A stretch of DNA of 64,000 nucleotides from a virus: positions 7,044 through 71,043 of the IMG/VR virus record IMGVR_UViG_3300045806_000013; one strand, 5' to 3'. The notes beneath the pieces were generated by a model. It saw only the letters and a program-made list of their open reading frames with translations. It did not search any database and had not been told where the DNA came from. Positions 30,893 through 43,009 of the stretch are shown one piece after another. The position numbers were made by a program, and so were the translations under genes. Position 1 is the first letter of the stretch, and every line of letters begins with the position of its first letter.

Positions 30893-31295
30893 CGTATTTA
30901 AAGATATTCTACCGTCAATCCTACAGACAAAGGAATACATTCTCATAGAACCGGAGGATATTGCAGAGTATAACCCATTCATCGTTAATCGGGCACTATC
31001 GTTACACCAGGACTGTGTATTATATGTCAACGAGTTGAATTTATACCCAACTATAGACGCTGATATGCAGTATGATTTCTACCTAAATACGTTGAGACCT
31101 ATGAAACGTGGCTTTCAAAAATGGCTAAAGTCTGAGGTTTTACCAGATTTGGAATGTGTGAAGAAGTATTTTGGCTACTCTAACCAGAAGGCCAAAGAAG
31201 CTCTGCGCGTTCTTTCAGATGAACAAATCGCTGAAATAAAAGCAAAAATAAATACAGGCGGAATGAATGATGATGGAGACACAAAAACTAGTTGA
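30882..31295 (+). CDS. gp62: Clamp loader small subunit
   Basis: YNPFIVNRALS, QYDFYLN, YFGYS..KA. Confidence 0.9.
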   Translation: MTINVFKDILPSILQTKEYILIEPEDIAEYNPFIVNRALSLHQDCVLYVNELNLYPTIDADMQYDFYLNTLRPMKRGFQKWLKSEVLPDLECVKKYFGYSNQKAKEALRVLSDEQIAEIKAKINTGGMNDDGDTKTS

Positions 31296-31689
31296 GGTTA
31301 CGATAGATCAACCTGATGATTTTTTAAAAATTAAAGAAACTCTCACTCGAATAGGAGTGGCGTCCAAGAAAGATATGATATTGTATCAATCATGCCATAT
31401 TCTACATAAGCGCGGTAAGTATTTCATAGTGCACTTTAAAGAGTTGTTTGAATTAGATGGGAAGCCATCTGACCTTAGTGATAATGATCTATCAAGAAGA
31501 AATGCAATTTCAATACTTCTCGAAGATTGGGGACTGTTGAATATCGTAAACCCTGATTGTGTGCAAACTCCACCCCCAATCTACATTTCACAGATTAAGA
31601 TATTGTCACACAGAGAAAAAGCTGATTGGCAGTTGGTACCAAAATATAACATCGGTGCTAAGAAGAATACCCACCTTGGGACCGTTTGA
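31267..31689 (+). CDS. regA: Translational repressor RegA
   Basis: DFLKIKETLTRIG, QSCHILHK.G.YFIVHFKEL. Confidence 0.95.
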   Translation: MMMETQKLVEVTIDQPDDFLKIKETLTRIGVASKKDMILYQSCHILHKRGKYFIVHFKELFELDGKPSDLSDNDLSRRNAISILLEDWGLLNIVNPDCVQTPPPIYISQIKILSHREKADWQLVPKYNIGAKKNTHLGTV

Positions 31690-31813
31690 TGCTACGTTAA
31701 AAGGCGTCCGTCTTCTGCAACGTTAATGTGGCGTGTCATTACACCGACAACACGATAGTTTGCCCTTGTATAAGGTAAGCAAGAATACACTCACACACTT
31801 AAAAGGAAATAAA

Positions 31814-32071
31814 ATGAAATCAGCACAAGTAAGCGCACCAGAAGTAACATTCAACAAAAATGGTTACGAAATCCGTACAGAAATTTTAGACATGGCAAGG
31901 TCACTCAATATTGATGACTACCATGCTAAGTTTCAAGGATGGGAAATGTCTAGTGTTAGGGATGAAAAGACTGGTCAAGTTGTAACGACTGTCGGTATGC
32001 CACCTTTCCCTGGATTGGATAAAATCTTGGAGACCGCAGAGCAGATGTATTCATTCGTGAATAAAAAGTAA
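31814..32071 (+). CDS. Hypothetical protein
   Basis: AAGGA RBS; NKNGYEIRTEIL. Confidence 0.6.
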   Translation: MKSAQVSAPEVTFNKNGYEIRTEILDMARSLNIDDYHAKFQGWEMSSVRDEKTGQVVTTVGMPPFPGLDKILETAEQMYSFVNKK

Positions 32072-32100
32072 AAAAATGGTGGGGTGCAATGCCCCACCTA

Positions 32101-32129
32101 TTGACATGACTCCGAAAAGTCAGTATAAT
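32101..32129 (+). promoter_or_regulatory. Sigma70 consensus promoter
   Basis: TTGACA-17bp-TATAAT. Confidence 0.85.
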
Positions 32130-32136
32130 TCAAATC

Positions 32137-32328
32137 ATGATGAAAAACGAACCAAAGCTTATCAAATATCAGAATCTGGCACAGCCCGATGTGGTGTTCT
32201 ATGCCTTTAGTAATTGGCACACTAAAGAGATAGATGGTGTAACCTTTCTTTCGGTGGTAAAGAATCCACCATCACACAATACGCAAATTACACATTGGAT
32301 ACGAAAAGATTCATTGAAGAGGGTATAA
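32137..32328 (+). CDS. Hypothetical protein
   Basis: ORF directly after the promoter. Confidence 0.5.
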   Translation: MMKNEPKLIKYQNLAQPDVVFYAFSNWHTKEIDGVTFLSVVKNPPSHNTQITHWIRKDSLKRV

Positions 32329-32338
32329 ATATATATTT

Positions 32339-32413
32339 CTGGCGTTCGTTCAACGGATAGGACAACTGCCTTCTAAGCAGTGAATAGGGGTTCGATTCCC
32401 TTACGCCGGACCA
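32339..32413 (+). tRNA. tRNA-Arg(TCT)
   Basis: Cloverleaf, loop CTTCTAA, encoded CCA. Confidence 0.92.
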
Positions 32414-32419
32414 ATACAT

Positions 32420-32494
32420 GCCACTCTAGCTCAATGGGAGAGCAGGGAACTCATAATTCCTTGGCACTTGGATCGAAACCAAGGAGTGGCACCA
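32420..32494 (+). tRNA. tRNA-Met/Ile2(CAT)
   Basis: Cloverleaf, loop CTCATAA, T-loop ATCGAAA, CCA. Confidence 0.88.
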
Positions 32495-32509
32495 TCTTAC
32501 AGGTATCAT

Positions 32510-33319
32510 ATGAAATCGTTTAAAGAATATTCAGAAGCTAAAAAGAAAGTTCCATTTTTGTCTTGGGATTCCGGATTTTCGGAAGTACGTGAAAAGAAAG
32601 TAACTGAAAATTGGCATGGTTTGCCACAAAAACAGGACTCCACCGGAAATAACAAATTTGGACAGAACTACGATGCCGGTTTTCATGATCACCCAGATGT
32701 AAAGCCTAGGAATGTATCGGATGATCATGCTAGGGCAATACTAAGGTATACGACAACATCCAGTAATGGAGAAAGAGGTCATGCGTCATCTGGAAATATG
32801 AATGCGTATCTTAGGAATAAAGCGGGGGACAAAACCCAACGAATACTGCATGACCATGATCCAAAAAAAGTACACGATTCTATAAAAACATTATCTTCTG
32901 CATTCACTAAAGAAAATACAAATAAGAAAGCTATTCATACATATGGTGGTGTTCCTGCACATATTGGCGAGAAGTTGGAGAAAAGTGAGAAGGGTTCTGA
33001 GCATCATTTAGCGGGATTTACTAGTACAAGTTCTGCGCAACGGACGGCCAAACACTTTGCACATACATATAATGGATTTGATCCGAAAAAAGTAAAGCAT
33101 GTTATACACTATCATGTTAAGCCTGGAGCAGGTCTATCCGCAGTGCACCACACAGACTATAATGAAAATGAAGTGATTTTACATCATGGGGCAAAATTGA
33201 AATATTCCCACACTACGGTGCATAAAGGAACTGAGGGTGAAGGTGACACTCATGTGCATCATGTGGTGGTTGGGTCTAAACATAAAAAGATTGAAGATTA
33301 TGGAGATTATGAAGCCTGA
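32510..33319 (+). CDS. ADP-ribosyltransferase-like protein (Alt/Mod-type), His-rich, CTS-like N-terminus
   Basis: YT...MNAYLR, FTSTS and ENEV motifs; starts MKSFKEYSE. Confidence 0.75.
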   Translation: MKSFKEYSEAKKKVPFLSWDSGFSEVREKKVTENWHGLPQKQDSTGNNKFGQNYDAGFHDHPDVKPRNVSDDHARAILRYTTTSSNGERGHASSGNMNAYLRNKAGDKTQRILHDHDPKKVHDSIKTLSSAFTKENTNKKAIHTYGGVPAHIGEKLEKSEKGSEHHLAGFTSTSSAQRTAKHFAHTYNGFDPKKVKHVIHYHVKPGAGLSAVHHTDYNENEVILHHGAKLKYSHTTVHKGTEGEGDTHVHHVVVGSKHKKIEDYGDYEA

Positions 33320-33731
33320 ATTGATTGAAGCGTACAAGACAACAACGGAAGCTTTTGCTAAATTATCAAGAGCTAGACGTCTGCAAGTTGGTGCTATTGT
33401 GGTGAAGGATGGTCGTATCATTTCCATAGGATATAATGGAACACCCGCAGGCTGGGATAATAATTGTGAAGATGTCCAAGAGGATGGGTCGTTGAAGACA
33501 AAGCCGGAGGTAGTTCATGCTGAAATGAATGCAATTGGTAAATTGGCTAAATCTAATGAATCCGGTGATGGTTCTACAATGTTTATCACACACGCGCCAT
33601 GTGTCGAATGTGCTAAGTTGATTGCAGTGAGTGGAATTAAAAAAGTGTATTTCGGCGCTGCATATAGATCAGATGATGGTGTTGTATTTTTACAACGATG
33701 TGGCGTGGAGGTTGACATGATCCCTAAATAG
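33309..33731 (+). CDS. cd: dCMP deaminase
   Basis: IGYNG, HAEMNAI, PCVEC. Confidence 0.92.
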   Translation: MKPELIEAYKTTTEAFAKLSRARRLQVGAIVVKDGRIISIGYNGTPAGWDNNCEDVQEDGSLKTKPEVVHAEMNAIGKLAKSNESGDGSTMFITHAPCVECAKLIAVSGIKKVYFGAAYRSDDGVVFLQRCGVEVDMIPK

Positions 33732-33740
33732 AGTTATAAT
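33712..33740 (+). promoter_or_regulatory. Sigma70 consensus promoter
   Basis: TTGACA-17bp-TATAAT. Confidence 0.8.
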
Positions 33741-33759
33741 TCAAACTTAGGGGATTGGG

Positions 33760-34272
33760 ATGAATGTTAAGATTTATGGTTGTCCTGAAAAAGCATTCAA
33801 ACCCTATGTAGAAAGATCGGTGCAGTTTTTCGCAGATTTGTTAATATCTAAGAAGATGCAGGAGAATGTAGGAATAAAAATACGTTTCGTCAAGAAATTG
33901 GACGTTTATGGATATGCAGAAGTGGATGGTCATAATGCTAGCAGGAAGCCCAGAAAGTTTATTATAACTGTGCATTCTGGTTTGGGAGCAAGACCGACGA
34001 TAGAGACAATTGCACATGAAATGGTCCATGTCAGACAATTTGTGTATGGTCATATAAATGAGACCTTAGACAAATGGTATGACCTAAAAGAAGATTTCAA
34101 TGAGGTGGATTACTGGTTCAAACCATGGGAAATTGAAGCACATGGGCTAGAGGCTGGATTGATGACAAAGTTTGCAATCAGTGAAAATTTGTGGGAAATC
34201 TTTGGAGATTTTGTAAATCCAGCAGAAAAGATAAAAAAAGTTGAAATAAATTGGTTAAAGCCACCATTTTGA
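33760..34272 (+). CDS. Zincin-like metallopeptidase
   Basis: AHEMVHVRQ and PWEIEA. Confidence 0.75.
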   Translation: MNVKIYGCPEKAFKPYVERSVQFFADLLISKKMQENVGIKIRFVKKLDVYGYAEVDGHNASRKPRKFIITVHSGLGARPTIETIAHEMVHVRQFVYGHINETLDKWYDLKEDFNEVDYWFKPWEIEAHGLEAGLMTKFAISENLWEIFGDFVNPAEKIKKVEINWLKPPF

Positions 34273-34328
34273 TAAATAAGTTGTATATATAGTAGTAGAG
34301 TTTAATTTTTAACAGAAAAAAGAGTATA

Positions 34329-34448
34329 ATGTCCTTTAGTAAATCGTTTCCATCATTGCGCGAGTATCACACACCGTTAAACGGCAGTGATAATCAGCCA
34401 TGGGCGATTGGGGTTAAGGGGTTTGATGAAGGTGGTGGTTACTGTTAA
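34329..34448 (+). CDS. Putative 39-aa attenuator leader peptide
   Basis: MSFSKSFPSLREYHTPLNGSDNQPWAIGVKGFDEGGGYC; overlaps a sequence complementary to the downstream terminator. Confidence 0.6.
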   Translation: MSFSKSFPSLREYHTPLNGSDNQPWAIGVKGFDEGGGYC

Positions 34449-34471
34449 GACAGCACCAAAGCAAGATTCTC

Positions 34472-34508
34472 AAACCCCAGAAAGCGAAAGTTCTCTGGGG
34501 TTTTTTCT
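34472..34508 (+). terminator. Terminator (putative attenuator) upstream of the main tRNA array
   Basis: aaaccccaga...gaaa...tctgggg followed by tttttt. Confidence 0.85.
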
Positions 34509-34532
34509 TAGTGTAAATTTTTAAAAAACGTG

Positions 34533-34560
34533 TTGCAAACTTTGAAAATTGTGGTATAAT
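34533..34560 (+). promoter_or_regulatory. Sigma70 promoter with extended -10
   Basis: TTGCAA-16bp-TATAAT with TG upstream of the -10. Confidence 0.7.
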
Positions 34561-34569
34561 ACGTTTATC

Positions 34570-34616
34570 GATTCAGAAATCATCGAATTTCGAATCAAAA
34601 GTTCTTTAACAATTGA
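34570..34616 (+). promoter_or_regulatory. rrn-like hairpin plus boxA antitermination element
   Basis: gattcagaaat/atttcgaatc hairpin, then GTTCTTTAACAATT (rrn boxA is TGCTCTTTAACAATT). Confidence 0.6.
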
Positions 34617-34794
34617 GTGTAGTTTTCTGATCCCTTGATGTAGCATACATATGCCACTTGTCGGGATGACATCGTGTGTCAAGGGATCATAGTTAAACAC
34701 ATCCATAACGCAACTCGGTACATGGATACCTGATCATGTGGCGCTGAAAACATGTGGGTGGCAAAGCCATGCTCGGTGTGTTTAACTATGATGT

Positions 34795-34868
34795 TCGGGA
34801 TTTGTGTAGTGGTAGCACACCAGACTTTGACTCTGATAGTATAAGTTCGATTCTTATATCCCGTACCA
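34795..34868 (+). tRNA. tRNA-Gln(TTG)
   Basis: Cloverleaf, loop CTTTGAC, CCA. Confidence 0.9.
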
Positions 34869-34875
34869 GAAAAAT

Positions 34876-34963
34876 GGATCATAGATGCTCTGGGAGCTAA
34901 CTGGCCTTGAAAACCGGTCCACTGTTGATAGCGGTGACAGTTCGATTCTGTTGTGATCCTCCC
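34876..34963 (+). tRNA. tRNA-Ser(TGA)
   Basis: Loop CTTGAAA, long variable arm; ends CCC rather than CCA. Confidence 0.75.
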
Positions 34964-35015
34964 TTGAGTCGAAGTCAAGACTCGAACTATTGTAAATATA
35001 GTATAGGAGATTAAT

Positions 35016-35711
35016 ATGTACTATACAATTTATAAAATAGTAAATCAAATCGATGGCAAGGTCTACATAGGTAGCCATAAGACCAAAGATTTGAATGACA
35101 AATATATGGGGTCGGGTAAATATCTGAAACGCGCCCAAGAGAAGTGTGGAATTGTTAATTTCACCAAAGAGATACTTTTCACATATGATAATGCACAGGA
35201 AATGTATGCAAAAGAAGCAGAGTTGGTGAATGAAGATTTCTTATCAACTGAAAACACATACAATTTGAAGGTTGGTGGTTCTGGTGGTTGGGATTTTATC
35301 AATAATGATAAAGATCATTATACCCACTCGTCGGAACATTCATATTACATGAAAAGACATTATAAAGAAAAAATGAAAGACACTTCATACAGAAATAAAG
35401 TATGTGAAAATATTTCAAAAGGTTTAAAAAATAAAGCAAACAATGATCCTGTATACCTAGAGAAAAAAAGAAAACATATTAAAAATATGAGTTTCGCAGG
35501 CAAACATCATAAACAGGAGAGTAAAATAAAAATGTCACTTTCTATGCAGGGTAAACAATCAGGTGAAAAAAATTCACAATATGGTTCCTTGTGGATAACT
35601 AATGGAACCGAAAATAAAAAGATAAGTAAAAATGATGTTATACCAAATGGTTGGTATAGAGGAAGAAAAATAAAGGTGCAGTCCCATAATGGTATTGGAG
35701 TTGATTGCTAA
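35016..35711 (+). CDS. GIY-YIG (Seg-like) homing endonuclease
   Basis: TIYKIVN...VYIGSH, YMGSG, YNLKVGG, NUMOD3-like GKHH. Confidence 0.9.
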   Translation: MYYTIYKIVNQIDGKVYIGSHKTKDLNDKYMGSGKYLKRAQEKCGIVNFTKEILFTYDNAQEMYAKEAELVNEDFLSTENTYNLKVGGSGGWDFINNDKDHYTHSSEHSYYMKRHYKEKMKDTSYRNKVCENISKGLKNKANNDPVYLEKKRKHIKNMSFAGKHHKQESKIKMSLSMQGKQSGEKNSQYGSLWITNGTENKKISKNDVIPNGWYRGRKIKVQSHNGIGVDC

Positions 35712-35764
35712 TCAATCGGTTGTAGTAATACGGCTTCGGGGTTCAAGTCCCCGCTGCACCACCA
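35675..35764 (+). tRNA. tRNA-Ser(GCT)
   Basis: Loop TTGCTAA, long variable arm, CCA; overlaps the 3' end of the endonuclease gene. Confidence 0.88.
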
Positions 35765-35888
35765 ATCAAACCCGGACCGGGAAACCGGTTAATGGGAGTA
35801 CGTGAGTTACTAAGGTGTCCTAGGCACTGAATGTGGCGGAATTCTCACAAAGCTATATGAGTCGTCCTGAGATATAGCACCTATAAAT

Positions 35889-35978
35889 GGAATATGCGGT
35901 CATGTTGGTACTGACGCCTGTTTGGAAAACAGGAGACTGCCTTGTGTGGTCGGGGTTCAATTCCTCCATATTCCTCCA
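35889..35978 (+). tRNA. tRNA-Ser(GGA)
   Basis: Loop TTGGAAA, long variable arm, CCA. Confidence 0.85.
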
Positions 35979-35986
35979 AGTTTTAT

Positions 35987-36064
35987 GCCCTTATGGACAA
36001 ATTGGTAAAGTCGCTTCTCTCAAAAGGAAGAATTCTCTCGGCTCGAATCCGAGTAAGGGCACCA
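35987..36064 (+). tRNA. tRNA-Leu(CAA), short variable loop
   Basis: Loop CTCAAAA, CCA. Confidence 0.85.
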
Positions 36065-36071
36065 GTTTTAT

Positions 36072-36149
36072 GTGCAAGTACCAGAGCGGTCTAATGGCAA
36101 TGTCTGCAAAACATTTGATTCGTGAGTTCAAATCTCACCTTGCACTCCA
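36072..36149 (+). tRNA. tRNA-Cys(GCA)
   Basis: Loop CTGCAAA, U73, CCA. Confidence 0.9.
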
Positions 36150-36180
36150 GTTATTTTTGTGTTATAATTAGATTTTAAAT

Positions 36181-36255
36181 ACTGCTGTCGTCTAGTGGCT
36201 AGGACATCTGGTTTTCATCCAGAGAAAGACGGATCGAAACCGTTCAGCAGTACCA
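36181..36255 (+). tRNA. tRNA-Glu(TTC)
   Basis: Loop TTTTCAT, CCA. Confidence 0.88.
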
Positions 36256-36259
36256 ATAT

Positions 36260-36333
36260 GGGGGTATAACTTAGTGGTAAAGTAGTAGGCTTTTAACCTA
36301 TTAACCAGAGTTCAATTCTCTGTGCCCCTACCA
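36260..36333 (+). tRNA. tRNA-Lys(TTT)
   Basis: Loop CTTTTAA, CCA. Confidence 0.9.
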
Positions 36334-36467
36334 AGAGCAGCGACCATGATTCACAATGGTCAGTATGAGCGAGTGAGGTATCTAGATAATCCTCACAGCA
36401 AGCAATAGTACGACAAACTATGTGATTAAGGTTTTATGGTGTCCTTTAAAAAACCGTACAGATTTAT

Positions 36468-36542
36468 GGTGCTGTCATATAATGGATATTATCGCGGATT
36501 GTCTATCCGTAGATGGGAGTTCGATTCTCCCCAGCATCGCCA
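36468..36542 (+). tRNA. tRNA-Asp(GTC)
   Basis: Loop TTGTCTA, G73, CCA. Confidence 0.9.
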
Positions 36543-36551
36543 AAGTTTTAT

Positions 36552-36630
36552 TCCGTGAAATTCAAGCAAGGTGCAAGGACTTGACTGTTAATCAATGACT
36601 AGGTGGGTTCGATTCCCTCACACGGAGCCA
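36552..36630 (+). tRNA. tRNA-Asn(GTT), copy 1, atypical D arm
   Basis: Loop CTGTTAA, GCCA end. Confidence 0.8.
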
Positions 36631-36644
36631 GTTTGTTATTTTAT

Positions 36645-36720
36645 TCTCCTATAGCTCAGTTGGTAGAGCATTTGACTGTTAATCAAAATGTCCCTCGTTC
36701 GAGCCGAGGTAGGGGAGCCA
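36645..36720 (+). tRNA. tRNA-Asn(GTT), copy 2
   Basis: Canonical cloverleaf, loop CTGTTAA, GCCA. Confidence 0.92.
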
Positions 36721-36727
36721 GTTTTAT

Positions 36728-36798
36728 TCTTGTGTAATGTAATAGTAGCATAGGGCCGTATACACCCAGTGAAAGTGCAACTCTTTCTGCAAGAGCCA
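36728..36798 (+). ncRNA. Degenerate tRNA-like RNA
   Basis: Acceptor stem and GCCA, D-like and T-like arms, non-canonical anticodon and T loops. Confidence 0.55.
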
Positions 36799-36803
36799 GT
36801 TTT

Positions 36804-36863
36804 AGGATTCATTCAGCAAAATCAAAAAATTCAACTTATATTTGAAAAAAAGCGAATCCTGTT
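36804..36863 (+). ncRNA. Y-RNA-like motif copy 1 with anticodon-stem-loop cargo (TAT)
   Basis: aggattc/gaatcct stem, ATTCAGCAA, 3' CTGTT; ttcaa-CTTATAT-ttgaa hairpin. Confidence 0.65.
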
Positions 36864-36872
36864 GTATTTTAT

Positions 36873-36946
36873 CTCCGTGTGGCGTAATGGTAGCGTCCGT
36901 GATTTGGGGTCATGGGGCGAAGGTTCGATTCCTTCTACGGAGACCA
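36873..36946 (+). tRNA. tRNA-Pro(TGG)
   Basis: Loop TTTGGGG, CCA. Confidence 0.9.
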
Positions 36947-36957
36947 GTTAGTTTAAT

Positions 36958-37041
36958 GGACGTTTGACCGAGAGGCCGAAGGTAGCGGATTGTAAACCCG
37001 CTCGTAACTGCACGTTGGTTCGAATCCAACAGCGTCCACCA
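36958..37041 (+). tRNA. tRNA-Tyr(GTA)
   Basis: Loop TTGTAAA, variable arm, CCA. Confidence 0.9.
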
Positions 37042-37109
37042 TGAAAGCGCAGTTTGTAGGATTCTGCCACTGAGTAGTAAAACTCGATAAATAATACCTA
37101 CACATATTT

Positions 37110-37184
37110 GGGCTGTTAGTATAACTGGGAATACAGTGGCGTTGCAAGCCTCAGTCGGGAGTTCGATCCTCCCACGGTCCACCA
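37110..37184 (+). tRNA. tRNA-Ala(TGC)
   Basis: G3:U70 pair, loop GTTGCAA, CCA. Confidence 0.88.
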
Positions 37185-37228
37185 TTATTGTTTATAAATA
37201 TAAGACTTACATTTATAGGATTTTTCGT

Positions 37229-37525
37229 ATGCTGACATTCAAATCATTCATCAGAGAATCTGTTCAATAAGAACATGAATTCAATGATAGTTCTGCACCG
37301 ATGCAGGCTGGAATGCCTAAAACTCTCCATGATTTTTTGTGGCATCTATCTGCACCAAATCCAGATGGTCGCGGTGTTGTAAGTGGGTTGCAGTTGAAGG
37401 GTGTTACAAATGAAAGTGCGGGCAATTTCGCCAATCATGTGGATGAACATGGTACAATCTGGATTCATGATCACAAACATGGTCAAGGTCCGCATAAGAC
37501 AATACCGATTCACGCTGCAAAATAA
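37229..37525 (+). pseudogene. Small His-rich CTS-bearing gene with an in-frame TAA at codon 14
   Basis: TATAAATA at 37193, AGGA RBS, MLTFKSFIRESVQ*EHEF... in frame with the 37301 ORF. Confidence 0.6.
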
Positions 37526-37532
37526 GATAGAT

Positions 37533-37607
37533 GGTTCTATGACGTAGATGGATGCGTATCGGTTTCATAAGCCGAAGAGAGTGGATCGATACCACTTAGA
37601 ACCACCA
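37533..37607 (+). tRNA. tRNA-Met/Ile2(CAT)
   Basis: Loop TTCATAA, CCA. Confidence 0.85.
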
Positions 37608-37615
37608 TAGTTAAT

Positions 37616-37692
37616 CCGCCCGTAGCACAACTGGAGAATGTACCGTCCTACGAAGTCGAGTGGTGGGAGTTCGAATCTCTCCGGGTGGACCA
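37616..37692 (+). tRNA. tRNA-Arg(ACG)
   Basis: Loop CTACGAA, imperfect anticodon stem, CCA. Confidence 0.8.
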
Positions 37693-37707
37693 ATTTAGGA
37701 GTATAAT

Positions 37708-37893
37708 ATGTCAGATGGTGGTAAAGGTTCCACGCCCAGACCATTTTCAGTTTCCAACGCCGAGTATGCTGCCCGATGGGATACGATATTCGGAAAGGAA
37801 GTAGAAAATGCTGAAGTTAAGAAAGAAATAGACGATCTGTTGTATGGAGTCAACAAAGACCTAAAAAGGATCATTGACCTCAATAAACAGTGA
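37708..37893 (+). CDS. Hypothetical protein
   Basis: AGGAG RBS; MSDGGKGS.PRP N-terminus. Confidence 0.65.
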   Translation: MSDGGKGSTPRPFSVSNAEYAARWDTIFGKEVENAEVKKEIDDLLYGVNKDLKRIIDLNKQ

Positions 37894-38087
37894 TATAATG
37901 CCATATGTGTTTTAGCGCACCAAACTTTACAAAATAAGTGACGAGTTGGGTTCGGTAGCACACAGAGTTTTGAGTCATTTTTGCGTTTTTTGTCCTACAT
38001 AATAATGTGAGATATGGAAATATTTCATAGATATCGGCATCTAGATACCGAGTGTAATTTCCATATAAAAAACAAAAAGGAAATATT

Positions 38088-38711
38088 ATGGCAGACGTAT
38101 TAACACAATCAGACTTATTTAATTTATTTCGTGATAACGCAGATATTCGGCTGGAAGATGCTGAACATTCCTCAGATATCCGTAGGGAAACTGCGGCAGG
38201 CGTGGCAGACATTCGTAGGGAAACTGCGGAACACACAGCAGATATTCGTAGAGAAGATTCTGAAGGTGTATCGAGGATTCTTCTAGAACAAGCCAAGGGT
38301 CTTGACAATATCAATTCTGATGTTAAGGCTACTGGTTGGAGTGTTGCAGATAGAGTTGGGGCAGAGTCAGCTAAGATTATTAATCAACAAACGCAATTCT
38401 ATATTGCTGCTGCTGCTGAAAGTGCAAGAAATGCATTGGAAGCTGCGAAGGTTTCGTATAACATTCTTGAGGGTCAAGCTCTTATTAATAGGACGACAAC
38501 CCATGAAGCAATGGAAACCCGTAAGCTGATCAATGACCTTCAGGTACAAGACCTAAATCGTATGTTGATTGAAAAGAATTCAGTCTTGATGGAGGAACGT
38601 GTAGAAGGTCGTTCACTATTAAGGGCCATTGAATCTAATCAATTCGCTACTTTACAAGGTAACATTAATTCACTACATGCACAGATTCATGCTGGCACTG
38701 CTGTGGCTTAA
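38088..38711 (+). CDS. Coiled-coil protein with 11-residue DIRRE repeats
   Basis: Four D-I-R-[RL]-E repeats spaced 11 aa apart; AAGGA RBS. Confidence 0.65.
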   Translation: MADVLTQSDLFNLFRDNADIRLEDAEHSSDIRRETAAGVADIRRETAEHTADIRREDSEGVSRILLEQAKGLDNINSDVKATGWSVADRVGAESAKIINQQTQFYIAAAAESARNALEAAKVSYNILEGQALINRTTTHEAMETRKLINDLQVQDLNRMLIEKNSVLMEERVEGRSLLRAIESNQFATLQGNINSLHAQIHAGTAVA

Positions 38712-38764
38712 TTTGATAGTTGGAATCTGGTTGATCACAAGTTGACCAGATTTTTTTAAGATTT

Positions 38765-38853
38765 AGAATACATTCAGCAAAAATTATTATAGGTTCGATT
38801 CCTAAATTATGCTTTTAGCATGACGCCAATGGTGGCAAATATTGTATTCTGTT
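38765..38853 (+). ncRNA. Y-RNA-like motif copy 2 with T-arm, hairpin and D-arm cargo (YrlA-like order)
   Basis: agaatac/gtattct stem; tagg-TTCGATT-ccta, atgc-tttta-gcat, gcc-aatggt-ggc. Confidence 0.65.
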
Positions 38854-38859
38854 GTTTAC

Positions 38860-38893
38860 ACCCGGATAATTAAATGGTATAATAATCGGCTGA
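38860..38893 (+). pseudogene. 5' half remnant of tRNA-Ile, truncated in the anticodon loop
   Basis: acccgga-taattaaatggtataat-a-atcgg-ctga parallels the 5' half of the tRNA at 39658. Confidence 0.7.
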
Positions 38894-38919
38894 CCTAAAT
38901 AAGTATTTTAAAGATTTAT

Positions 38920-39672
38920 ATGCCATTGTATTGTTGCTGTATTGAATGTAGAAGTGTTGTGGCAACTAGCCAGATATCCAGACACTATAAGAGTAAATTA
39001 TGTCTAAGTGGAGGTAAATACGTACCAATGACGTGCTGCCCCCATTGTAATCTCCGAAAAGAGGATATAAATTCAGATTTTGCGAATCATGTGAAATTTT
39101 GCGCGGCAAATGAGTCGGTGCCAAATTATAAAAATGGAAAAGGTTCAAAATATTTTACAGGTAGATTAGCATGGAATAAAGGCAAAACTAAAGAAAATGA
39201 TGTAAGAGTTGCTAAATCTGCAAATACGCTGATGGTAGGCATAAAGCCGAATCATGGTCAATGTAGTGATCCCATTGAAGAGACGGAAAGACGATTGAAA
39301 CTTTCAAAAATTGCAAAACTTAATGGGTTTGGTGGATATAGACAAAATGCAGGTATAAGTAAAAAGTTTAGAGTTTTAGATTCATATGGAAAAGAGGTTG
39401 TGTTACAGAGTAGCTATGAACTTAAATGTTCAGAGATATTGAATTCATCCAACATAAAGTGGATTAGACCAACCGCATTGAAATACGATAACAAAAATTA
39501 TTTTGCCGATTTCTATCTTCCTGAATATGACGTGTGGCTAGACCCGAAGAATGCATATAAAGCCACTCTAGACAGTGATAAAATCAAAAAAGTAATAGCA
39601 CAAAATAATATAAGATTGTATGTTTTATTAGAACATCAATTAACAAAAGAATATATTGCCGGGATAATATAG
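38920..39672 (+). CDS. Putative homing endonuclease (Zn finger, NUMOD, PD-(D/E)xK)
   Basis: CPHC, AWNKG, SSYE...YFADFYLP...LDPK. Confidence 0.75.
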   Translation: MPLYCCCIECRSVVATSQISRHYKSKLCLSGGKYVPMTCCPHCNLRKEDINSDFANHVKFCAANESVPNYKNGKGSKYFTGRLAWNKGKTKENDVRVAKSANTLMVGIKPNHGQCSDPIEETERRLKLSKIAKLNGFGGYRQNAGISKKFRVLDSYGKEVVLQSSYELKCSEILNSSNIKWIRPTALKYDNKNYFADFYLPEYDVWLDPKNAYKATLDSDKIKKVIAQNNIRLYVLLEHQLTKEYIAGII

Positions 39673-39732
39673 TGATCTGTATAATCGCCTGATAAGCGAT
39701 CAGTGATGGTTTGATTCCATCTCTCGGTACCA
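39658..39732 (+). tRNA. tRNA-Ile(GAT)
   Basis: Loop CTGATAA, CCA; overlaps the endonuclease stop codon. Confidence 0.8.
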
Positions 39733-39740
39733 AAAAATAT

Positions 39741-39815
39741 AAGTCGCAGGTGTAAATGGCTGCATCTTAGTCTCCAAAACTAAAGGACACGGATCGTTAC
39801 CGTGGCGACTTGCCA
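39741..39815 (+). tRNA. tRNA-Trp(CCA)
   Basis: Loop CTCCAAA, GCCA end. Confidence 0.85.
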
Positions 39816-39839
39816 GTTTTTTATAAGGAGTGAAGTGAT

Positions 39840-40337
39840 ATGTCAGATTTTAATATCGATGAAGTAAAGGCATTTATTGTTGCCCAAAGTGAATCTACCA
39901 AAGTATATCTTGGTGCAGATTCAGAAAGACTACGCATTGATGGTGTCTGGTATGTTGACTACTCGTTGGCTGTAATTGTCCACATTGATGGGTGCCATGG
40001 TTGTAAGATTTTTGGATATGTTCAACGTGAATTGGATTATGATCATAAGAAATCTAAACCATCTATGCGTCTGATGTCGGAGGTATATAAAGTTTCTGAG
40101 TTATTCCAGAATATGCAGGATGTTCTGGAGGATAGACACGTTGAAATCCATATTGACATAAATCCAGATGAACGACATGGCTCGTCTTGTGTGGTGCAAC
40201 AAGCTATTGGATATATTAAGGGGACGTGTAACATGAAACCAATGGTGAAACCTAATGCTCCCGCAGCAAGCTTCGCAAGTGATAGGTTAAAAAGAATCTT
40301 ACATGAGCAGGACACTATTGAGAAAGTGACAACTTGA
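39840..40337 (+). CDS. RNase H-like YkuK/DUF458 family protein
   Basis: VYLGADS, RLMSEV, EIHIDIN, AASFASD. Confidence 0.75.
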   Translation: MSDFNIDEVKAFIVAQSESTKVYLGADSERLRIDGVWYVDYSLAVIVHIDGCHGCKIFGYVQRELDYDHKKSKPSMRLMSEVYKVSELFQNMQDVLEDRHVEIHIDINPDERHGSSCVVQQAIGYIKGTCNMKPMVKPNAPAASFASDRLKRILHEQDTIEKVTT

Positions 40338-40341
40338 ACCG

Positions 40342-40382
40342 CCTCCTATTGTGCAGATGTATAAATACTGTATAATAGGAGG
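40342..40382 (+). promoter_or_regulatory. RBS-sequestering hairpin with a late promoter in its loop
   Basis: cctcctattgtgcag-atg-TATAAATA-ctgtataataggagg, 15-bp stem. Confidence 0.8.
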
Positions 40383-40388
40383 TTGTAT

Positions 40389-40965
40389 ATGAACTACGTA
40401 AAGATATATAACGATTTAATAAACACTGCAGCCGGGAACGAATATGATGAGTACACTGAAAAACATCATATAATTCCAAAATGTCTGGGAGGTTCTAATA
40501 AGAAAGAGAATTTAATTGTCCTTTCATATAGAGAGCATTTCATATGCCATTGGTTATTGTGTAAGATATATCCGGATAAAAAAATATGGAATTGAGAATT
40601 TTGTAAAAGAGATTTTATTTGTTTATGATACACCTGAACCTATGTTTTTAAAAGAAGCAGAATTAGTAAATATAAATTTTCTAGCATGTGAAAATGTCTA
40701 TAATATTAAGATTGGTGGTTTCGGTGGGTTTGACTTTATAAACAAGTCAAGAACTACTGAAAGCAGGATAAAATCTGGAAAAATGGGCAGATTAAAGGGT
40801 GGTAAATCTTTTAGTAAAGATTATAATCCAAATATCGGATCAATCTATATTACAAATTCAATTTCTGATAAAAGAATAAAATCTGGAGAACCAATACCGG
40901 ATGGTTGGACTAGAGGTCGAACTAAAGGAGGTTGGAAAGCCAAAAAAATTTTGGAGAATAGTTAA
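40389..40965 (+). pseudogene. Chimeric or degraded homing endonuclease: HNH N-terminus joined out of frame to a GIY-YIG C-terminus
   Basis: EKHHIIPKC...REHFICHWLL (40389-40595), then KKYGIENF...YNIKIGG in another frame. Confidence 0.7.
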
Positions 40966-41164
40966 ATATTTTCCTCTAAGTTTTGTTATGATGTAGATAC
41001 TATGAAATCGACTGTAGGCATATGGTCAGAAAGGTCATTCGAGGCACTTTCGGAGCGTCACCAAGTAATAGTTATAACTACTTACCACTAACCCAGTGCA
41101 CTTAATTATATGGGTAAAATGGTTCCGAATGAGTGTGGCGGAACGATCATGACAAATTTATAAT

Positions 41165-41256
41165 GGGAGTAAGAATTGGTATTCAGAGAGGTCTTATAAG
41201 CCTTTTAGCGCCAGATTAGCGTTCTTGAGAAGGTTCGATTCCTTCTACTCCTACCA
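41165..41256 (+). tRNA. Atypical tRNA with TAT anticodon and long variable arm
   Basis: gggagta/tactcct acceptor, 4-bp/4-nt D arm, gaggt-CTTATAA-gcctt, canonical T arm, ACCA. Confidence 0.75.
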
Positions 41257-41306
41257 AATATCGCCCTGACATATGGCGTACAATGAGATAAGTAGTATGT
41301 TACCTT

Positions 41307-41380
41307 GCCTTTGTAGTATAGTGATATTACTCACCCTTGGTACGGGTGAAACAAGAGTTTGATTCTCTTCGAAGGCACCA
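41307..41380 (+). tRNA. tRNA-Thr(GGT)
   Basis: Loop TTGGTAC, CCA. Confidence 0.85.
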
Positions 41381-41459
41381 TTTATAAACACATTATTTAA
41401 TAAGGTGTAACCCGCGACACAACCGTATGGTAGTGGGTAGTGTGTTTTTAAATGTTTAT

Positions 41460-41535
41460 GCGTCTTTGGCAGTGATGGTTCATGCAGTGGTCTGAAAAGC
41501 CACCTATGTTGGTTCGATCCCAACAGGACGCACCA
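41460..41535 (+). tRNA. tRNA-Phe(GAA)
   Basis: Loop CTGAAAA, CCA. Confidence 0.88.
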
Positions 41536-41641
41536 AGTTAAGCAGAGCCTGACTGAAACGGGCATGGGAGAAGCTGGATGCTGGAAATGTATCAGGGGTT
41601 CGATTCCCACAGTCTCTTATTTCAGTCTGCTTATTAAATTA

Positions 41642-41715
41642 GCCCTTTTCGTATAGTGGCATTACATCTGTTTCGTAATCAGATTACGGCAGTTCAATTC
41701 TGTCAAAGGGCACCA
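41642..41715 (+). tRNA. tRNA-Thr(CGT)
   Basis: Loop TTCGTAA, CCA. Confidence 0.88.
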
Positions 41716-41719
41716 AAGG

Positions 41720-41917
41720 ATGAAAAAATATTCACTAAAGCTATTGACTTCGGGTAGGCAGGTATGGTACAATAACCGTCTACACACGATAGAACACAAC
41801 ATCGTTAGTGACGGTAAGTTATATGTGAGATTAGTTGATAATCCTAATTTGATACCAGAAGAAAATGTTGATTGTGAGTATACTGATATAGTTTTAGAAA
41901 GAATAACGGGGATATAG
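41720..41917 (+). CDS. Hypothetical protein
   Basis: ORF between tRNAs; stop codon lies inside the next tRNA. Confidence 0.5.
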   Translation: MKKYSLKLLTSGRQVWYNNRLHTIEHNIVSDGKLYVRLVDNPNLIPEENVDCEYTDIVLERITGI

Positions 41918-41985
41918 CAAAATTTGGTATTGCCACTGACTCTTAATCAGTAAAAAAGTGGATTCGATTTCCACTGTCCCCACCA
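41908..41985 (+). tRNA. tRNA-Lys(CTT)
   Basis: Loop CTCTTAA, CCA. Confidence 0.85.
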
Positions 41986-41991
41986 AGTTAA

Positions 41992-42161: not shown

Positions 42162-42167
42162 GTTTTT

Positions 42168-42236: not shown

Positions 42237-42243
42237 GTTTAAA

Positions 42244-42320: not shown

Positions 42321-42324
42321 ATTT

Positions 42325-42920: not shown

Positions 42921-42936
42921 ATTTTTTTAGAGATTT

Positions 42937-43003: not shown

Positions 43004-43009
43004 GTATTG

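What the first reader, a model, noticed from the sequence alone, without database searches (positions are those of the whole stretch)
34271..34508. Putative pan-codon attenuator: a 39-aa leader with all 20 amino acids gating the tRNA array
Seen: ORF 34329-34448 (MSFSKSFPSLREYHTPLNGSDNQPWAIGVKGFDEGGGYC) contains all 20 amino acids. Nineteen occur in the first 29 codons, and 27 of the first 30 codons are distinct. GGGGTTTGA (34418-34426) is exactly complementary to TCAAACCCC (34470-34478), which overlaps the 5' arm of the terminator at 34472-34508. Established: this is the geometry of trp/his-type attenuators, whose leaders are instead enriched in one amino acid. Inference: stalling on almost any depleted or cleaved tRNA would free the antiterminator and let transcription run into the tRNA array, acting as a general sensor of host tRNA-targeting defence or starvation. 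Caveat: a separate sigma70 promoter at 34533 lies downstream of the terminator.
Basis: partly seen in the sequence, partly recalled or inferred. Interest (0 to 1): 0.88.

Follow-up and report, generated by a model that had tools for sequence, protein, structure and literature searches.

The report
Leader-peptide attenuator before phage tRNA genes
A short translated reading frame followed by a switchable transcription stop sits just ahead of the tRNA genes in a group of uncultured T4-like phages, and its unusually complete mix of amino acids suggests it lets the phage make more tRNA when translation slows down.

Summary
In the window alone these features are only weakly beyond chance. The decisive evidence is comparative. 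The same unit occurs in 57 IMG/VR contigs of related T4-like phages, giving 46 distinct sequences with the window's. Every one has an open leader frame of 30-44 codons, in-frame indels and mostly synonymous variation in its core. Every one has a terminator 23-32 nt after the stop. Every one has an antiterminator whose 5' strand lies in the last codons and whose pairs covary (12 of 13 pairs compensatory). A tRNA array follows in 48 of 50 loci checked. 24 of 39 distinct peptides contain all 20 amino acids, against about 0.02-0.5% expected. I read it as a trp-type ribosome-dependent attenuator with a codon-diverse leader (about 0.85 for an attenuator, about 0.5 for a selected general tRNA-supply sensor). 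Three caveats apply. Only about 16 amino-acid kinds lie where a stall could free the antiterminator. 39 of 46 members, the window included, carry a strong promoter after the terminator. Nothing is tested experimentally. No prior description was found.

The parts
33712..33740 (+). Sigma-70-type promoter (TTGACA-17-TATAAT, 12 of 12). It lies ahead of the 170-aa gene and is the likely source of the transcript that carries the window's leader.
   Evidence: No terminator-like site is listed between it and 34472 on the + strand. No good promoter lies within 90 nt upstream of the leader start; the best match is 8 of 12.
33760..34272 (+). 170-aa gene of unknown function (HExxH-like motif; PHROG 10499). 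Its homologues precede the tRNA array in related phages.
34320..34324 (+). Shine-Dalgarno-like AAGAG, 4 nt before the ATG.
   Evidence: Relatives carry GGAG 5-7 nt before TTG/GTG starts, or a leaderless layout.
34329..34448 (+). Leader ORF of 39 codons plus stop, with all 20 amino-acid kinds.
   Evidence: The frame is open in all 43 distinct relatives' ORFs, while the other two frames carry stops in 41 of 43 and 43 of 43.
34330..34351 (+). Region 1. These are the codons at the 5' end of the leader. They are predicted to pair with region 2 when no ribosome is on them (anti-antiterminator).
   Evidence: Family-wide, the pairing is predicted in 43 of 44 truncated transcripts. Partner-permutation support is weak, 202 of 20000.
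34365..34392 (+). Conserved hairpin P1 inside the ORF (UAUCAC ... GUGAUA), at the tip of the 1:2 helix.
   Evidence: The closing pair covaries: G-C in most members, G-U in some, A-U in the window.
34409..34437 (+). Region 2, the antiterminator 5' strand. The core GGGGTTTGA lies at 34418-34426 and the extended duplex runs to 34437. It sits in codons 27-37 of the leader.
34446..34448 (+). Leader stop codon TAA. It lies 23 nt before the terminator's 5' arm (family range 23-32 nt).
34460..34479 (+). Region 3, the antiterminator 3' strand. The core TCAAACCCC lies at 34470-34478. It shares 34472-34479 with the terminator's 5' arm.
34472..34508 (+). Intrinsic terminator (regions 3:4): a 10+3 bp stem with a GAAA loop and a U-tract.
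34533..34560 (+). Strong promoter (TTGCAA-16-TGnTATAAT) downstream of the terminator. It is the array's own promoter.
   Evidence: A counterpart is present in 39 of 46 family members.
34795..34868 (+). tRNA-Gln(UUG), the first of 25 tRNA genes downstream of the unit.

Best explanation
This is a ribosome-dependent (leader-peptide) transcription attenuator of the trp/his type. It belongs to a family found directly upstream of the tRNA gene array in a clade of uncultured T4-like phages.

A 30-44-codon leader is translated, either from a leaderless AUG or from an SD-led start. Its RNA can adopt three mutually exclusive helices:
- 1:2, between the first codons and the last codons;
- 2:3, between the last codons and the 5' flank plus 5' arm of the terminator (the antiterminator);
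- 3:4, the intrinsic terminator.

Proposed logic:
- With no ribosome on the leader, 1:2 and 3:4 form and transcription stops.
- A ribosome that runs quickly to the stop codon sits on strand 2. 3:4 forms and transcription stops.
- A ribosome held anywhere from about codon 3 to about codon 26 melts strand 1 and leaves strand 2 free. 2:3 forms and RNA polymerase reads on into the tRNA genes.

The leader has no run of any one amino acid. It carries about 16 kinds in the sensitive stretch and often all 20 overall. Slow decoding of many different codons would therefore raise tRNA-array transcription, giving a feedback from tRNA supply to tRNA synthesis.

Shown here by comparison of sequences: the leader is translated, and the terminator, the antiterminator and the link to tRNA arrays are conserved or covary.

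Inferred: the stall-dependent switch, the 1:2 helix, and selection for amino-acid completeness.

The 0.5 below is for the whole statement. For 'a leader-peptide attenuator of some kind' I put about 0.85.
For: Family:
- 11 of the 21 stretches matched by a DNA-motif scan of IMG/VR are true homologues.
- A peptide-pattern scan confirmed 50 of 78 matched stretches.
- Together with the window these give 58 records, 46 nt-distinct sequences and 39 distinct peptides.

Translation:
- The frame is open in all, while the other two frames carry stops in 41 of 43 and 43 of 43.
- In the subset found without any ORF requirement, 12 of 12 are open.
- Length differences between lineages are 12, 3 and 9 nt.
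- Variable sites in the core fall 1, 0 and 5 at codon positions 1, 2 and 3.
- The start is either TTGCC[AG]-17-TATA[AC]T-6 nt-ATG (leaderless, 17 sequences) or GGAG at 5-7 nt.

Terminator:
- 46 of 46 have one, at dG -9.6 to -18.2, with a stop-to-stem distance of 23-32 nt.

Antiterminator:
- The cognate duplex is -15 to -22.8 kcal/mol. None of 200 shuffles is as good in 24 of 36 distinct arm pairs, and at most 3 of 200 in 34 of 36.
- Its 3' end lies within 4 nt of the stop codon in 33 of 36.
- It is stronger than the terminator in 44 of 44.
- Cognate partners average -18.7, against -14.2 for permuted partners (0 of 5000). With 15 lineage representatives the values are -19.0 and -13.4 (0 of 20000), and the cognate partner is the best in 9 of 15.
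- On a model-based alignment 92.7% of cells pair, against 75.5% when shuffled (0 of 500). 12 of 13 pairs show changes on both sides. The covariation score is 0.451, against 0.157 shuffled and at most 0.089 when slid.

Three states:
- The full-length MFE has the terminator in 40 of 44 and the antiterminator in 4 of 44.
- Before strand 3 is made, strand 2 pairs with the first codons in 43 of 44.

Context:
- A tRNA array follows in 48 of 50 loci; the 2 exceptions are contig ends.
- In 7 of 46 the first tRNA starts 0-12 nt after the U-tract with no promoter between.

Diversity:
- 24 of 39 peptides have 20 kinds, 9 have 19 and 6 have 17-18, at a mean length of 35.5.
- The null P(20 kinds) is 1.8e-4 to 4.8e-3, and 5 of 2362 small ORFs reach it.
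- With the core held fixed, the chance that the remaining residues supply every missing kind is 0.0016-0.075 in eight lineages whose termini differ.
Against: - There is no experiment, and no transcript ends. RNA-library contigs do not cover the leader, and contigs could not show ends in any case.
- 39 of 46 members, the window included, have a promoter matching at least 10 of 12 positions 25-44 nt after the terminator. Read-through there can only add to array transcription.
- The core (EYRTPFIGSDNQ[SP]W) is nearly invariant in order as well as in content. A pure 'any codon' sensor does not require that. RNA helices P1 and 1:2 overlap the core and may explain it, but so could a peptide function.
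- Amino-acid completeness is not universal: it fails in L111 (18 kinds), L126 (17) and type A (17-18).
- The sensitive zone holds 12-18 kinds, not 20, and at least 16 kinds in 25 codons occurs in 6.7% of real protein windows.
- Met is tested only by the initiator.
- Gly and Val at the C-terminus are by-products of the G-rich strand 2.
- Sequences are related, so the shuffle and permutation controls overstate independence. The alignment behind one search was fitted to the tested helix, and the window's own row was put in a different register there.
- 1:2 has weak covariation support (202 of 20000; cognate best in 1 of 15).
- Leader codons are not enriched for those read by the phage's tRNAs: 30 of 39, against 0.786.
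Confidence: 

Rival explanations
1. The attenuator is real but is not tuned to amino-acid variety. The leader simply reports whether a ribosome follows RNA polymerase (general coupling, initiation or elongation capacity), as in UTP-sensitive pyrBI-type attenuation or antibiotic-sensing leaders. The amino-acid diversity would then be a by-product of a sequence frozen by overlapping RNA helices.
For: - Nearly the whole ORF is base-paired in the predicted structures: 1:2, P1 and strand 2.
- The core is conserved at the nucleotide level too.
- The C-terminal Gly/Val residues derive from the G-rich strand 2.
- The sensitive zone holds 12-18 kinds rather than all 20.
- Three lineages lack 2-3 kinds.
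Against: - 24 of 39 peptides hold all 20 kinds, against an expectation of at most 0.5%.
- Lineages whose core lost kinds carry them elsewhere. The window lost C and F from the core segment and has them in the termini. Type B lost C, P and H and has them in its N-terminus. L160 lost T, Q and A and has them in its N-terminus. The conditional probabilities are 0.0016-0.075.
- Uniform use of the 61 codons would still give all 20 kinds in 35 codons in under about 1% of cases (my own estimate, not a call).
Confidence: 0.25
2. It is an attenuator driven by a regulatory arrest peptide. The conserved core would act inside the ribosome exit tunnel (TnaC/SecM-like) and stall the ribosome in response to one specific signal, not to tRNA supply in general.
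For: The core EYRTPFIGSDNQ[SP]W shows no non-synonymous change in E...Q across 12 distinct main-clade core sequences, while the termini vary freely. Y, D and W are invariant even in the most divergent types.
Against: - The invariant Y and D codons form the P1 stem, and the W codon pairs with upstream bases in the predicted folds. RNA constraints therefore suffice to explain them.
- No similarity to any Pfam family.
- No homologue outside these phages: none in INPHARED, none in 185,579 prokaryote genomes, and only the peptide itself among 1.84 billion representatives.
- This rival does not explain the amino-acid completeness.
Confidence: 0.1
3. It is a stand-alone gene for a trans-acting micro-protein of 30-44 aa, with its own promoter and terminator, parked next to the array promoter. 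The 2:3 pairing would serve mRNA stability or translation, not read-through control.
For: - Many members have their own promoter and a strong terminator, followed by a separate array promoter. That is the layout of an independent small transcription unit.
- The peptide core is conserved.
- Phage micro-peptides with roles in tRNA-directed conflicts exist (T4 Stp; recalled, not from a call).
Against: - A helix that covaries and competes with the terminator's own 5' arm, and is stronger than the terminator in 44 of 44, has no obvious role in a simple terminator.
- The constant stop-to-terminator spacing of 23-32 nt, and the placement of strand 2 within 4 nt of the stop in 33 of 36, fit ribosome-position control.
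- In 7 of 46 the tRNA array has no other visible promoter.
- The termini are poorly conserved.
Confidence: 0.1
4. It is an untranslated RNA switch (riboswitch, T-box-like or protein-binding leader), or a chance coincidence.
For: There is a conserved hairpin and conserved single-stranded stretches (CAUGGNCGA), and the element sits before tRNA genes.
Against: - The open frame, the in-frame indels, the synonymous substitution pattern and the start signals all argue for translation.
- No Rfam family matches at E up to 1 in 31000-47000, T-box and amino-acid leader families included.
- Recurrence in 57 other contigs with covariation excludes chance.
Confidence: 0.05

Closest known systems
Leader-peptide transcription attenuators of amino-acid operons (trp, his, leu, thr, ilv, pheA; Rfam Trp/His/Leu/Thr leader families)
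   Same: - A short translated leader.
- Three alternative helices (1:2, 2:3, 3:4).
- An intrinsic terminator.
- Strand 2 placed at the end of the leader, so that a terminating ribosome masks it.
   Different: - There is no run of one regulatory amino acid; instead there are 17-20 kinds in 30-44 codons.
- The genes downstream are tRNA genes of a phage, not biosynthetic genes.
- Many members are leaderless mRNAs.
- No Rfam leader family matches.
toiL, the multipurpose uORF of E. coli topAI-yjhQ (PMC12121999; abstract and outline read)
   Same: It is a single uORF proposed to respond to many kinds of translation stress, because ribosomes stalled at different positions remodel the downstream RNA structure.
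   Different: According to that abstract, toiL acts through RBS occlusion and Rho-dependent termination and answers to antibiotics. Here there is an intrinsic terminator with a classical antiterminator, the context is a phage, the target is tRNA genes, and the leader's amino-acid composition is itself unusual.
Ribosome-mediated attenuation of antibiotic-response genes (e.g. bmrCD, PMC4191407; search listing and start of abstract only)
   Same: Ribosome stalling on a short leader switches a terminator off.
   Different: The trigger there is a drug-bound ribosome, and the targets are efflux or resistance genes of bacteria.
pyrBI / pyrE UTP-sensitive attenuation (recalled; no call)
   Same: The leader is not amino-acid specific. 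What is read out is how closely the ribosome follows RNA polymerase.
   Different: In those systems the ribosome itself blocks the terminator hairpin and no antiterminator helix is involved. Here a covarying antiterminator exists.
T-box leaders
   Same: They provide feedback from tRNA charging to transcription read-through through a terminator/antiterminator pair.
   Different: T-boxes bind one uncharged tRNA directly and are not translated. No T-box match was found, and the element here shows the marks of translation.

Membership tests
Leader-peptide (ribosome-dependent) transcription attenuators, trp/his class | A short ORF upstream of the regulated genes that is translated | tested here: met
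   This rests on evolutionary evidence only. The frame is open in all 43 distinct ORFs, against stops in 41 of 43 and 43 of 43 for the other frames. Indels are in frame. Variable sites in the core fall 1/0/5 by codon position. Starts are SD-led or leaderless. No ribosome data exist.
Leader-peptide (ribosome-dependent) transcription attenuators, trp/his class | An intrinsic terminator shortly after the leader | tested here: met
   Window: dG -19.9, z -3.74. Family: 46 of 46, lying 23-32 nt after the stop. On an alignment not fitted to it, 88.7% of cells pair and 3 of 8 pairs are compensatory.
Leader-peptide (ribosome-dependent) transcription attenuators, trp/his class | An antiterminator helix that excludes the terminator, with its 5' strand where a terminating ribosome masks it | tested here: met
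   It shares 6-9 nt with the terminator's 5' arm. 12 of 13 pairs are compensatory and 92.7% of cells pair (the alignment was fitted to this helix). Partner permutation gives 0 of 20000. The strand ends within 4 nt of the stop in 33 of 36.
Leader-peptide (ribosome-dependent) transcription attenuators, trp/his class | An anti-antiterminator (1:2) helix that holds strand 2 when the leader is not translated | tested here: inconclusive
   It is predicted in 43 of 44 truncated transcripts. Partner-permutation support is only 202 of 20000, and the cognate partner is best in 1 of 15.
Leader-peptide (ribosome-dependent) transcription attenuators, trp/his class | A run or enrichment of codons for the one amino acid that is sensed | tested here: not met
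   There is no run. The leaders hold 17-20 kinds in 30-44 codons.
Leader-peptide (ribosome-dependent) transcription attenuators, trp/his class | Downstream genes that make or charge the sensed amino acid | tested here: not met
   The downstream genes are tRNA genes.
Leader-peptide (ribosome-dependent) transcription attenuators, trp/his class | Read-through that rises when the ribosome stalls in the leader | not testable with these tools
   This needs reporter assays, coupled in vitro assays or Term-seq. The RNA-library contigs gave nothing on it.
Rfam amino-acid leader families and T-box | A match to the covariance model | tested here: not met
   No such match at E up to 1 in window 31000-47000.
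General translation-stress uORFs (toiL type) | Stalls at several different positions of one uORF that all relieve repression | not testable with these tools
   The geometry allows it for A-site stalls at about codons 3-26. No functional data exist.
General translation-stress uORFs (toiL type) | Action through RBS occlusion and Rho-dependent termination | tested here: not met
   Here there is an intrinsic terminator, and tRNA genes with no RBS lie downstream. The feature is taken from the abstract of PMC12121999.
Nascent-peptide arrest leaders (TnaC/SecM type) | A conserved peptide motif needed for stalling | tested here: inconclusive
   The core is conserved, but the same bases form conserved helices, so peptide and RNA constraints cannot be separated here.

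The most novel reading that the evidence does not exclude
A phage-encoded homeostat for the tRNA pool. The leader would be a 'test message' that samples most amino-acid kinds once or twice. Shortage of almost any charged tRNA would stall the ribosome and open the gate to the phage's own tRNA array. The shortage could come from starvation, from phage-induced host shut-off, or from host defence nucleases that cut tRNAs. Amino-acid completeness of the leader would then be under selection. This would be the first attenuator known to control tRNA genes, and the first leader built for breadth rather than for one amino acid.
Probability: 0.4. Interest if true: 0.9.

Novelty: new variant of a known kind. 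Interest (0 to 1): 0.8.

Why it matters
Phage tRNA arrays are currently discussed as codon-usage aids and as counter-measures to host systems that destroy tRNAs (PMC10264068 and PMC11464382; search listing and starts of abstracts, plus find-mode passages for the first). How their expression is controlled is hardly addressed. In PMC10264068 the words attenuat-, leader, terminator and promoter do not occur.

A conserved, covarying attenuator directly ahead of the arrays would mean that some phages regulate tRNA output by measuring translation itself. The leader extends the classic attenuation principle from 'one amino acid, one operon' to a broad read-out.

It also gives a compact part of about 180 nt that could be tested directly in laboratory E. 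coli as a sensor of tRNA depletion.

No cultured phage carries it. It is absent from 50,697 INPHARED records, so it has escaped notice. Four text searches found no description of it.

Tried and rejected
**Searches for close relatives that gave little**
- blastn of 33700-35100 against INPHARED hit only a 104-nt homing-endonuclease piece.
- The 170-aa neighbour gave no relative in IMG/VR with exact peptide words.
- It gave one 34%-identical metagenome contig, L001, which I did not use further.
- The exact terminator string found nothing in IMG/VR.
- The way in was the major capsid protein, followed by a search of five long related records for the 170-aa gene.

**The leader peptide as a protein**
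- No Pfam family matches.
- Among 1.84 billion representatives it finds only itself. There are 7 further hits with E-values of 3e-7 to 5e-4, to proteins of 273-4413 aa with several matched stretches each. I take these as compositional and did not follow them.
- tblastn against INPHARED found nothing at E up to 1.
- The scan of prokaryote genomes confirmed none of 15 pattern matches.

**RNA families**
- Nothing but tRNAs, and weak chance-level hits elsewhere in the stretch, in 31000-47000.

**Structure from a plain alignment**
- RNAalifold on the MAFFT alignment A3 returned no pairs, because the arms are out of register between lineages.
- I therefore used per-sequence duplexes with partner permutation and a covariance-model alignment.

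**Expression**
- RNA-library runs X3, X5 and X9 are held as contigs only. None covers 34244-34417, and the DNA run X2 is also thin there. This says nothing about transcription of the leader.

**Codon matching**
- Leader codons are read by the window's own tRNAs no more often than background codons: 30 of 39, against 0.786. I dropped the idea that the leader is tuned to the phage's tRNA set.
- Type A leaders lack Ala, Gly and Ile, although type A arrays carry tRNA-Gly and, in L092, tRNA-Ile. The leader's content does not mirror the array's content.

**A late-promoter reading of TATATATA at 34284**
- The phage's strand-biased late motif is TATAAATA (14 on the + strand, 1 on the - strand). TATATATA occurs once on each strand. 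Rejected for the window. Type B relatives do have TATAAATA 5 nt before the ATG.

**Rows dropped**
- 10 of the 21 hits. I judged them chance matches by eye: they are GC-rich and have no terminator or tRNA after them.
- L139 and L155, which are cut by contig ends.
- The alignment A5 holds 2 spurious rows (window 22710 and L101 1628) that I could not remove.

**Other**
- No supplementary files were consulted.
Full report
**What is in the window.**
- The ORF at 34329-34448 (+) encodes MSFSKSFPSLREYHTPLNGSDNQPWAIGVKGFDEGGGYC. It has all 20 amino-acid kinds, 19 of them in the first 29 codons. 27 of the first 30 codons are distinct.
- An AAGAG lies 4 nt before the ATG.
- GGGGTTTGA (34418-34426) is the exact complement of TCAAACCCC (34470-34478).
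- A hairpin at 34472-34503 has a GAAA loop and a U-tract to 34508. It folds at -19.9 kcal/mol with z -3.74.
- TTGCAA-16-TATAAT, preceded by TG, lies at 34533-34560.
- 27 tRNA genes lie in the window, 25 of them downstream, starting with tRNA-Gln at 34795.
- The window is part of a 71-kb contig of a T4-like phage. It carries a tail sheath, portal, major capsid protein, UvsW-like helicase, gp46-like nuclease and family-B DNA polymerase.
- Upstream lie an ADP-ribosyltransferase-like ORF, a dCMP deaminase and a 170-aa gene behind a 12-of-12 promoter at 33712.

**Is it more than chance in the window alone?** Only weakly.
- The ORF is the one all-20 ORF among 631 ORFs of 20-39 aa in the contig.
- The per-ORF expectation at this length is 0.13-0.48%, and 5 of 2362 unrelated small ORFs reach 20 kinds.
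- The best strand-2/strand-3 duplex is -18.7 kcal/mol, against -13.5 +/- 2.8 for shuffles; 12 of 200 shuffles do as well.

**Finding relatives.**
- Cultured phages gave nothing close.
- The capsid protein found a clade of IMG/VR contigs at 80-89% identity.
- Four of five long records of that clade carry a 45-52% identical homologue of the 170-aa gene, followed by tRNA genes.
- Reading the spacers showed, in two of them, a unit homologous to the window's. It has a shared hairpin (GTATCRC ... GYGATRA), then CATGGNCGA, then a G-rich stretch complementary to the 5' flank of a terminator.
- A DNA-motif scan of IMG/VR gave 21 stretches. 11 are true homologues and 10 are GC-rich chance hits.
- A scan with peptide patterns from five leaders confirmed 50 of 78 matched stretches, 4 of them on contigs already found.
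- Together with the window that makes 58 records, 46 nt-distinct units and 39 distinct peptides.
- None was found in 185,579 prokaryote genomes.

**The leader is translated (inferred from evolution).**
- The frame is open in every unit, while the two other frames carry stops in 41 of 43 and 43 of 43 distinct ORFs.
- Among the 12 units found with no ORF requirement, all 12 are open.
- Lineages differ by indels of 12, 3 and 9 nt.
- In the main clade the 14-codon core EYRTPFIGSDNQ[SP]W has 1, 0 and 5 variable sites at codon positions 1, 2 and 3. All four Pro codons occur.
- There are two start architectures. 17 units have TTGCC[AG]-17-TATA[AC]T and then ATG exactly 6 nt later, which is a leaderless mRNA if transcription starts at the usual distance. 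The others have GGAG 5-7 nt before TTG, GTG or ATG.

**Terminator and antiterminator.**
- All 46 units have an intrinsic terminator (-9.6 to -18.2 kcal/mol) whose stem starts 23-32 nt after the stop codon.
- In all 36 distinct arm combinations the last codons of the leader pair with the 5' flank plus the first 6-9 nt of the terminator's 5' arm, at -15.0 to -22.8 kcal/mol.
- None of 200 shuffles is as good in 24 of 36 combinations. At most 3 of 200 are as good in 34 of 36. The exceptions are L123 and the window.
- The strand ends within 4 nt of the stop codon in 33 of 36. The exceptions are the window at 8 nt, L111 at 12 and L138 at 22.
- The part outside the terminator differs between lineages and is matched on the other strand. 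Examples are GUGGAA/UUCAC, UUUGAA/UUCAAA, UUUUGUG/CACAAAA, UCUUAUGU/ACAUAAGA, and GA/UC in the window.
- Swapping partners between units weakens the duplex from -18.7 to -14.2 kcal/mol (0 of 5000 permutations as good). With 15 lineage representatives the change is from -19.0 to -13.4 (0 of 20000), and the cognate partner is the best in 9 of 15.
- On an alignment made with a covariance model of this helix, 92.7% of cells pair, against 75.5% shuffled (0 of 500). 12 of 13 pairs show changes on both sides. The covariation score is 0.451, against 0.157 shuffled and at most 0.089 for slid registers.
- That alignment is fitted to the helix, contains 2 spurious rows, and puts the window's own row in another register.
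- The terminator, counted on the same alignment and so not fitted to it, pairs in 88.7% of cells with 3 of 8 pairs compensatory.
- The antiterminator duplex is stronger than the terminator hairpin in 44 of 44 units.

**A third helix.**
- In minimum-energy folds of transcripts cut 8 nt after the stop, strand 2 pairs with the first codons of the leader in 43 of 44 units, with hairpin P1 at the tip.
- Full-length folds show the terminator in 40 of 44 and the antiterminator in 4 of 44 (the window).
- Covariation support for this 1:2 helix is weak: 202 of 20000 permutations are as good, and the cognate partner is best in 1 of 15. I treat it as predicted, not shown.

**Context.**
- In 48 of 50 loci a tRNA gene, mostly tRNA-Gln(UUG), starts about 260-450 nt after the leader's start and an array follows. 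The two exceptions are contig ends.
- In 39 of 46 units a promoter matching at least 10 of 12 positions lies 25-44 nt after the terminator. The window's promoter at 34533 is its counterpart.
- In the 7 units of types A and B there is no such promoter, and the first tRNA starts 0-12 nt after the U-tract. There the array can be reached only by reading through the terminator, unless an internal promoter lies further down.

**Amino-acid variety.**
- 24 of 39 distinct peptides have all 20 kinds, 9 have 19 and 6 have 17-18. The mean length is 35.5 aa.
- Windows of this phage's real proteins give a mean of 15.1 kinds at 35 aa, with P(20 kinds) = 1.8e-4. At 31 aa, 0 of 17,240 windows reach 20 kinds, yet the 31-aa type B leaders do.
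- Much of this is inherited, because the conserved core and its flanks carry 16 kinds.
- But lineages that lost kinds from the core carry them in their otherwise unrelated termini.
- With the core fixed, the chance that the remaining residues supply every missing kind is 0.038 (window), 0.0016 (type B), 0.035, 0.024, 0.020, 0.016, 0.020 and 0.075 in eight lineages. Three lineages fail: 0.75, 0.29 and 0.65 for their lower counts.
- Lineages are not fully independent, so I do not multiply these values.
- Two cautions. First, only codons whose A-site stall leaves strand 2 uncovered can act. In the window these are codons 2-26 with 16 kinds. Across the family the mean is 16.0 kinds in 24.5 codons (range 12-18), against 13.2 +/- 1.6 in real 25-aa windows, of which 6.7% reach 16. 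Second, the Gly/Val-rich C-terminus is simply the G-rich strand 2 read as codons.

**Mechanism I commit to.**
- It is a trp-type attenuator.
- With no ribosome, 1:2 and 3:4 form and transcription stops.
- With a fast ribosome, strand 2 is masked at the stop codon, 3:4 forms and transcription stops.
- With a ribosome held in codons about 3-26, strand 1 is covered and strand 2 is free. 2:3 forms first and is the stronger helix, so transcription reads through into the tRNA genes.
- Because the sensitive codons span about 16 amino-acid kinds, many different shortages would open the gate.
- Shown here: conservation, covariation, translation signature and context.
- Inferred: the switch itself, its triggers, and selection for breadth.
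- Odds: a leader-peptide attenuator of some kind, about 0.85. A selected broad tRNA-supply sensor, about 0.5. An attenuator whose diversity is a by-product, about 0.25. An arrest peptide, about 0.1. A stand-alone micro-protein, about 0.1. An untranslated switch or chance, about 0.05.

**Comparison with what is known.**
- It works like the amino-acid operon attenuators. It fails two of their defining features: it has no regulatory codon run and no biosynthetic target. It also matches no Rfam leader family.
- The idea of one uORF answering many translation stresses exists for toiL, which acts through Rho and RBS occlusion (PMC12121999; abstract and outline).
- Four full-text searches found no attenuator ahead of phage tRNA genes.
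- A key paper on phage tRNAs and host defence does not mention attenuators, leaders, terminators or promoters.
- I therefore file it as a new variant of a known kind.

**Habitat hint.** Contigs 99% or more alike to parts of 33200-35800 occur in runs labelled permafrost or peat metagenome (X2, X3, X5, X9). The host is unknown.

Noticed in passing
window 34603-34790 (+): A strongly structured RNA of about 190 nt (two long hairpins) lies between the promoter at 34533 and tRNA-Gln. The 34566-34800 stretch folds at -67.1 kcal/mol with z -2.0. No Rfam family matches. One RNA-library contig (X9, 34603-34785) has depth 22.5, against 1-5 for its neighbours. Most relatives have a much shorter spacer here.
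   Followed up: partly
window 34875-34960 (+): A sub-threshold match to the tRNA-Sec model (35 bits, E 8e-4) lies right after tRNA-Gln and was not called by ARAGORN. In run X9 a contig departs from the window at 34958 into what looks like the 5' half of another tRNA.
   Followed up: no
window 41165-41256 (+); also L115 2455-2546, L130 2174-2265 and others: An unusually long (90-95 nt) tRNA-Ile(UAU) recurs across the clade. Rfam scores the window's copy best as tRNA-Sec-like (35.6 bits). It may have a long extra arm or an insert.
   Followed up: no
window 35016-35711 (+): A 231-aa ORF lies inside the tRNA array and overlaps the start of tRNA-Ser(GCU) at 35675. Its 5' part is 77% identical at the DNA level to a 'nuclease associated modular domain 3 protein' of Vibrio phage 1.081.O. 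This suggests a homing-endonuclease-like insert.
   Followed up: no
window 32324, 37193, 45264, 45665 and 10 more (+): The T4-type late-promoter octamer TATAAATA occurs 14 times on the + strand and once on the - strand. Several copies sit directly before tRNA genes (tRNA-Arg 32339, tRNA-Thr 45280, tRNA-Gly 45681), so parts of the array may also be transcribed late.
   Followed up: partly
L112 about 1690-1705 and the same place in many relatives: A perfect palindrome TTGTAA-TC-TTACAA lies between the attenuator's U-tract and the -35 box of the array promoter in many main-clade units. It may be a protein-binding site. It is absent from the window.
   Followed up: no
L088 13226-14730 (- strand), record G001: In this 236-kb relative the 170-aa gene is followed by a long ORF of about 1.45 kb. 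A terminator then abuts tRNA-Trp, with no leader ORF. The terminator-before-array arrangement therefore exists without the leader.
   Followed up: no
window 32468-33319 (+): A 283-aa ORF matches ADP-ribosyltransferase families (PF03496, E 2.2e-10), in the place where T4-like phages carry Alt/Mod-type host-modifying enzymes.
   Followed up: no
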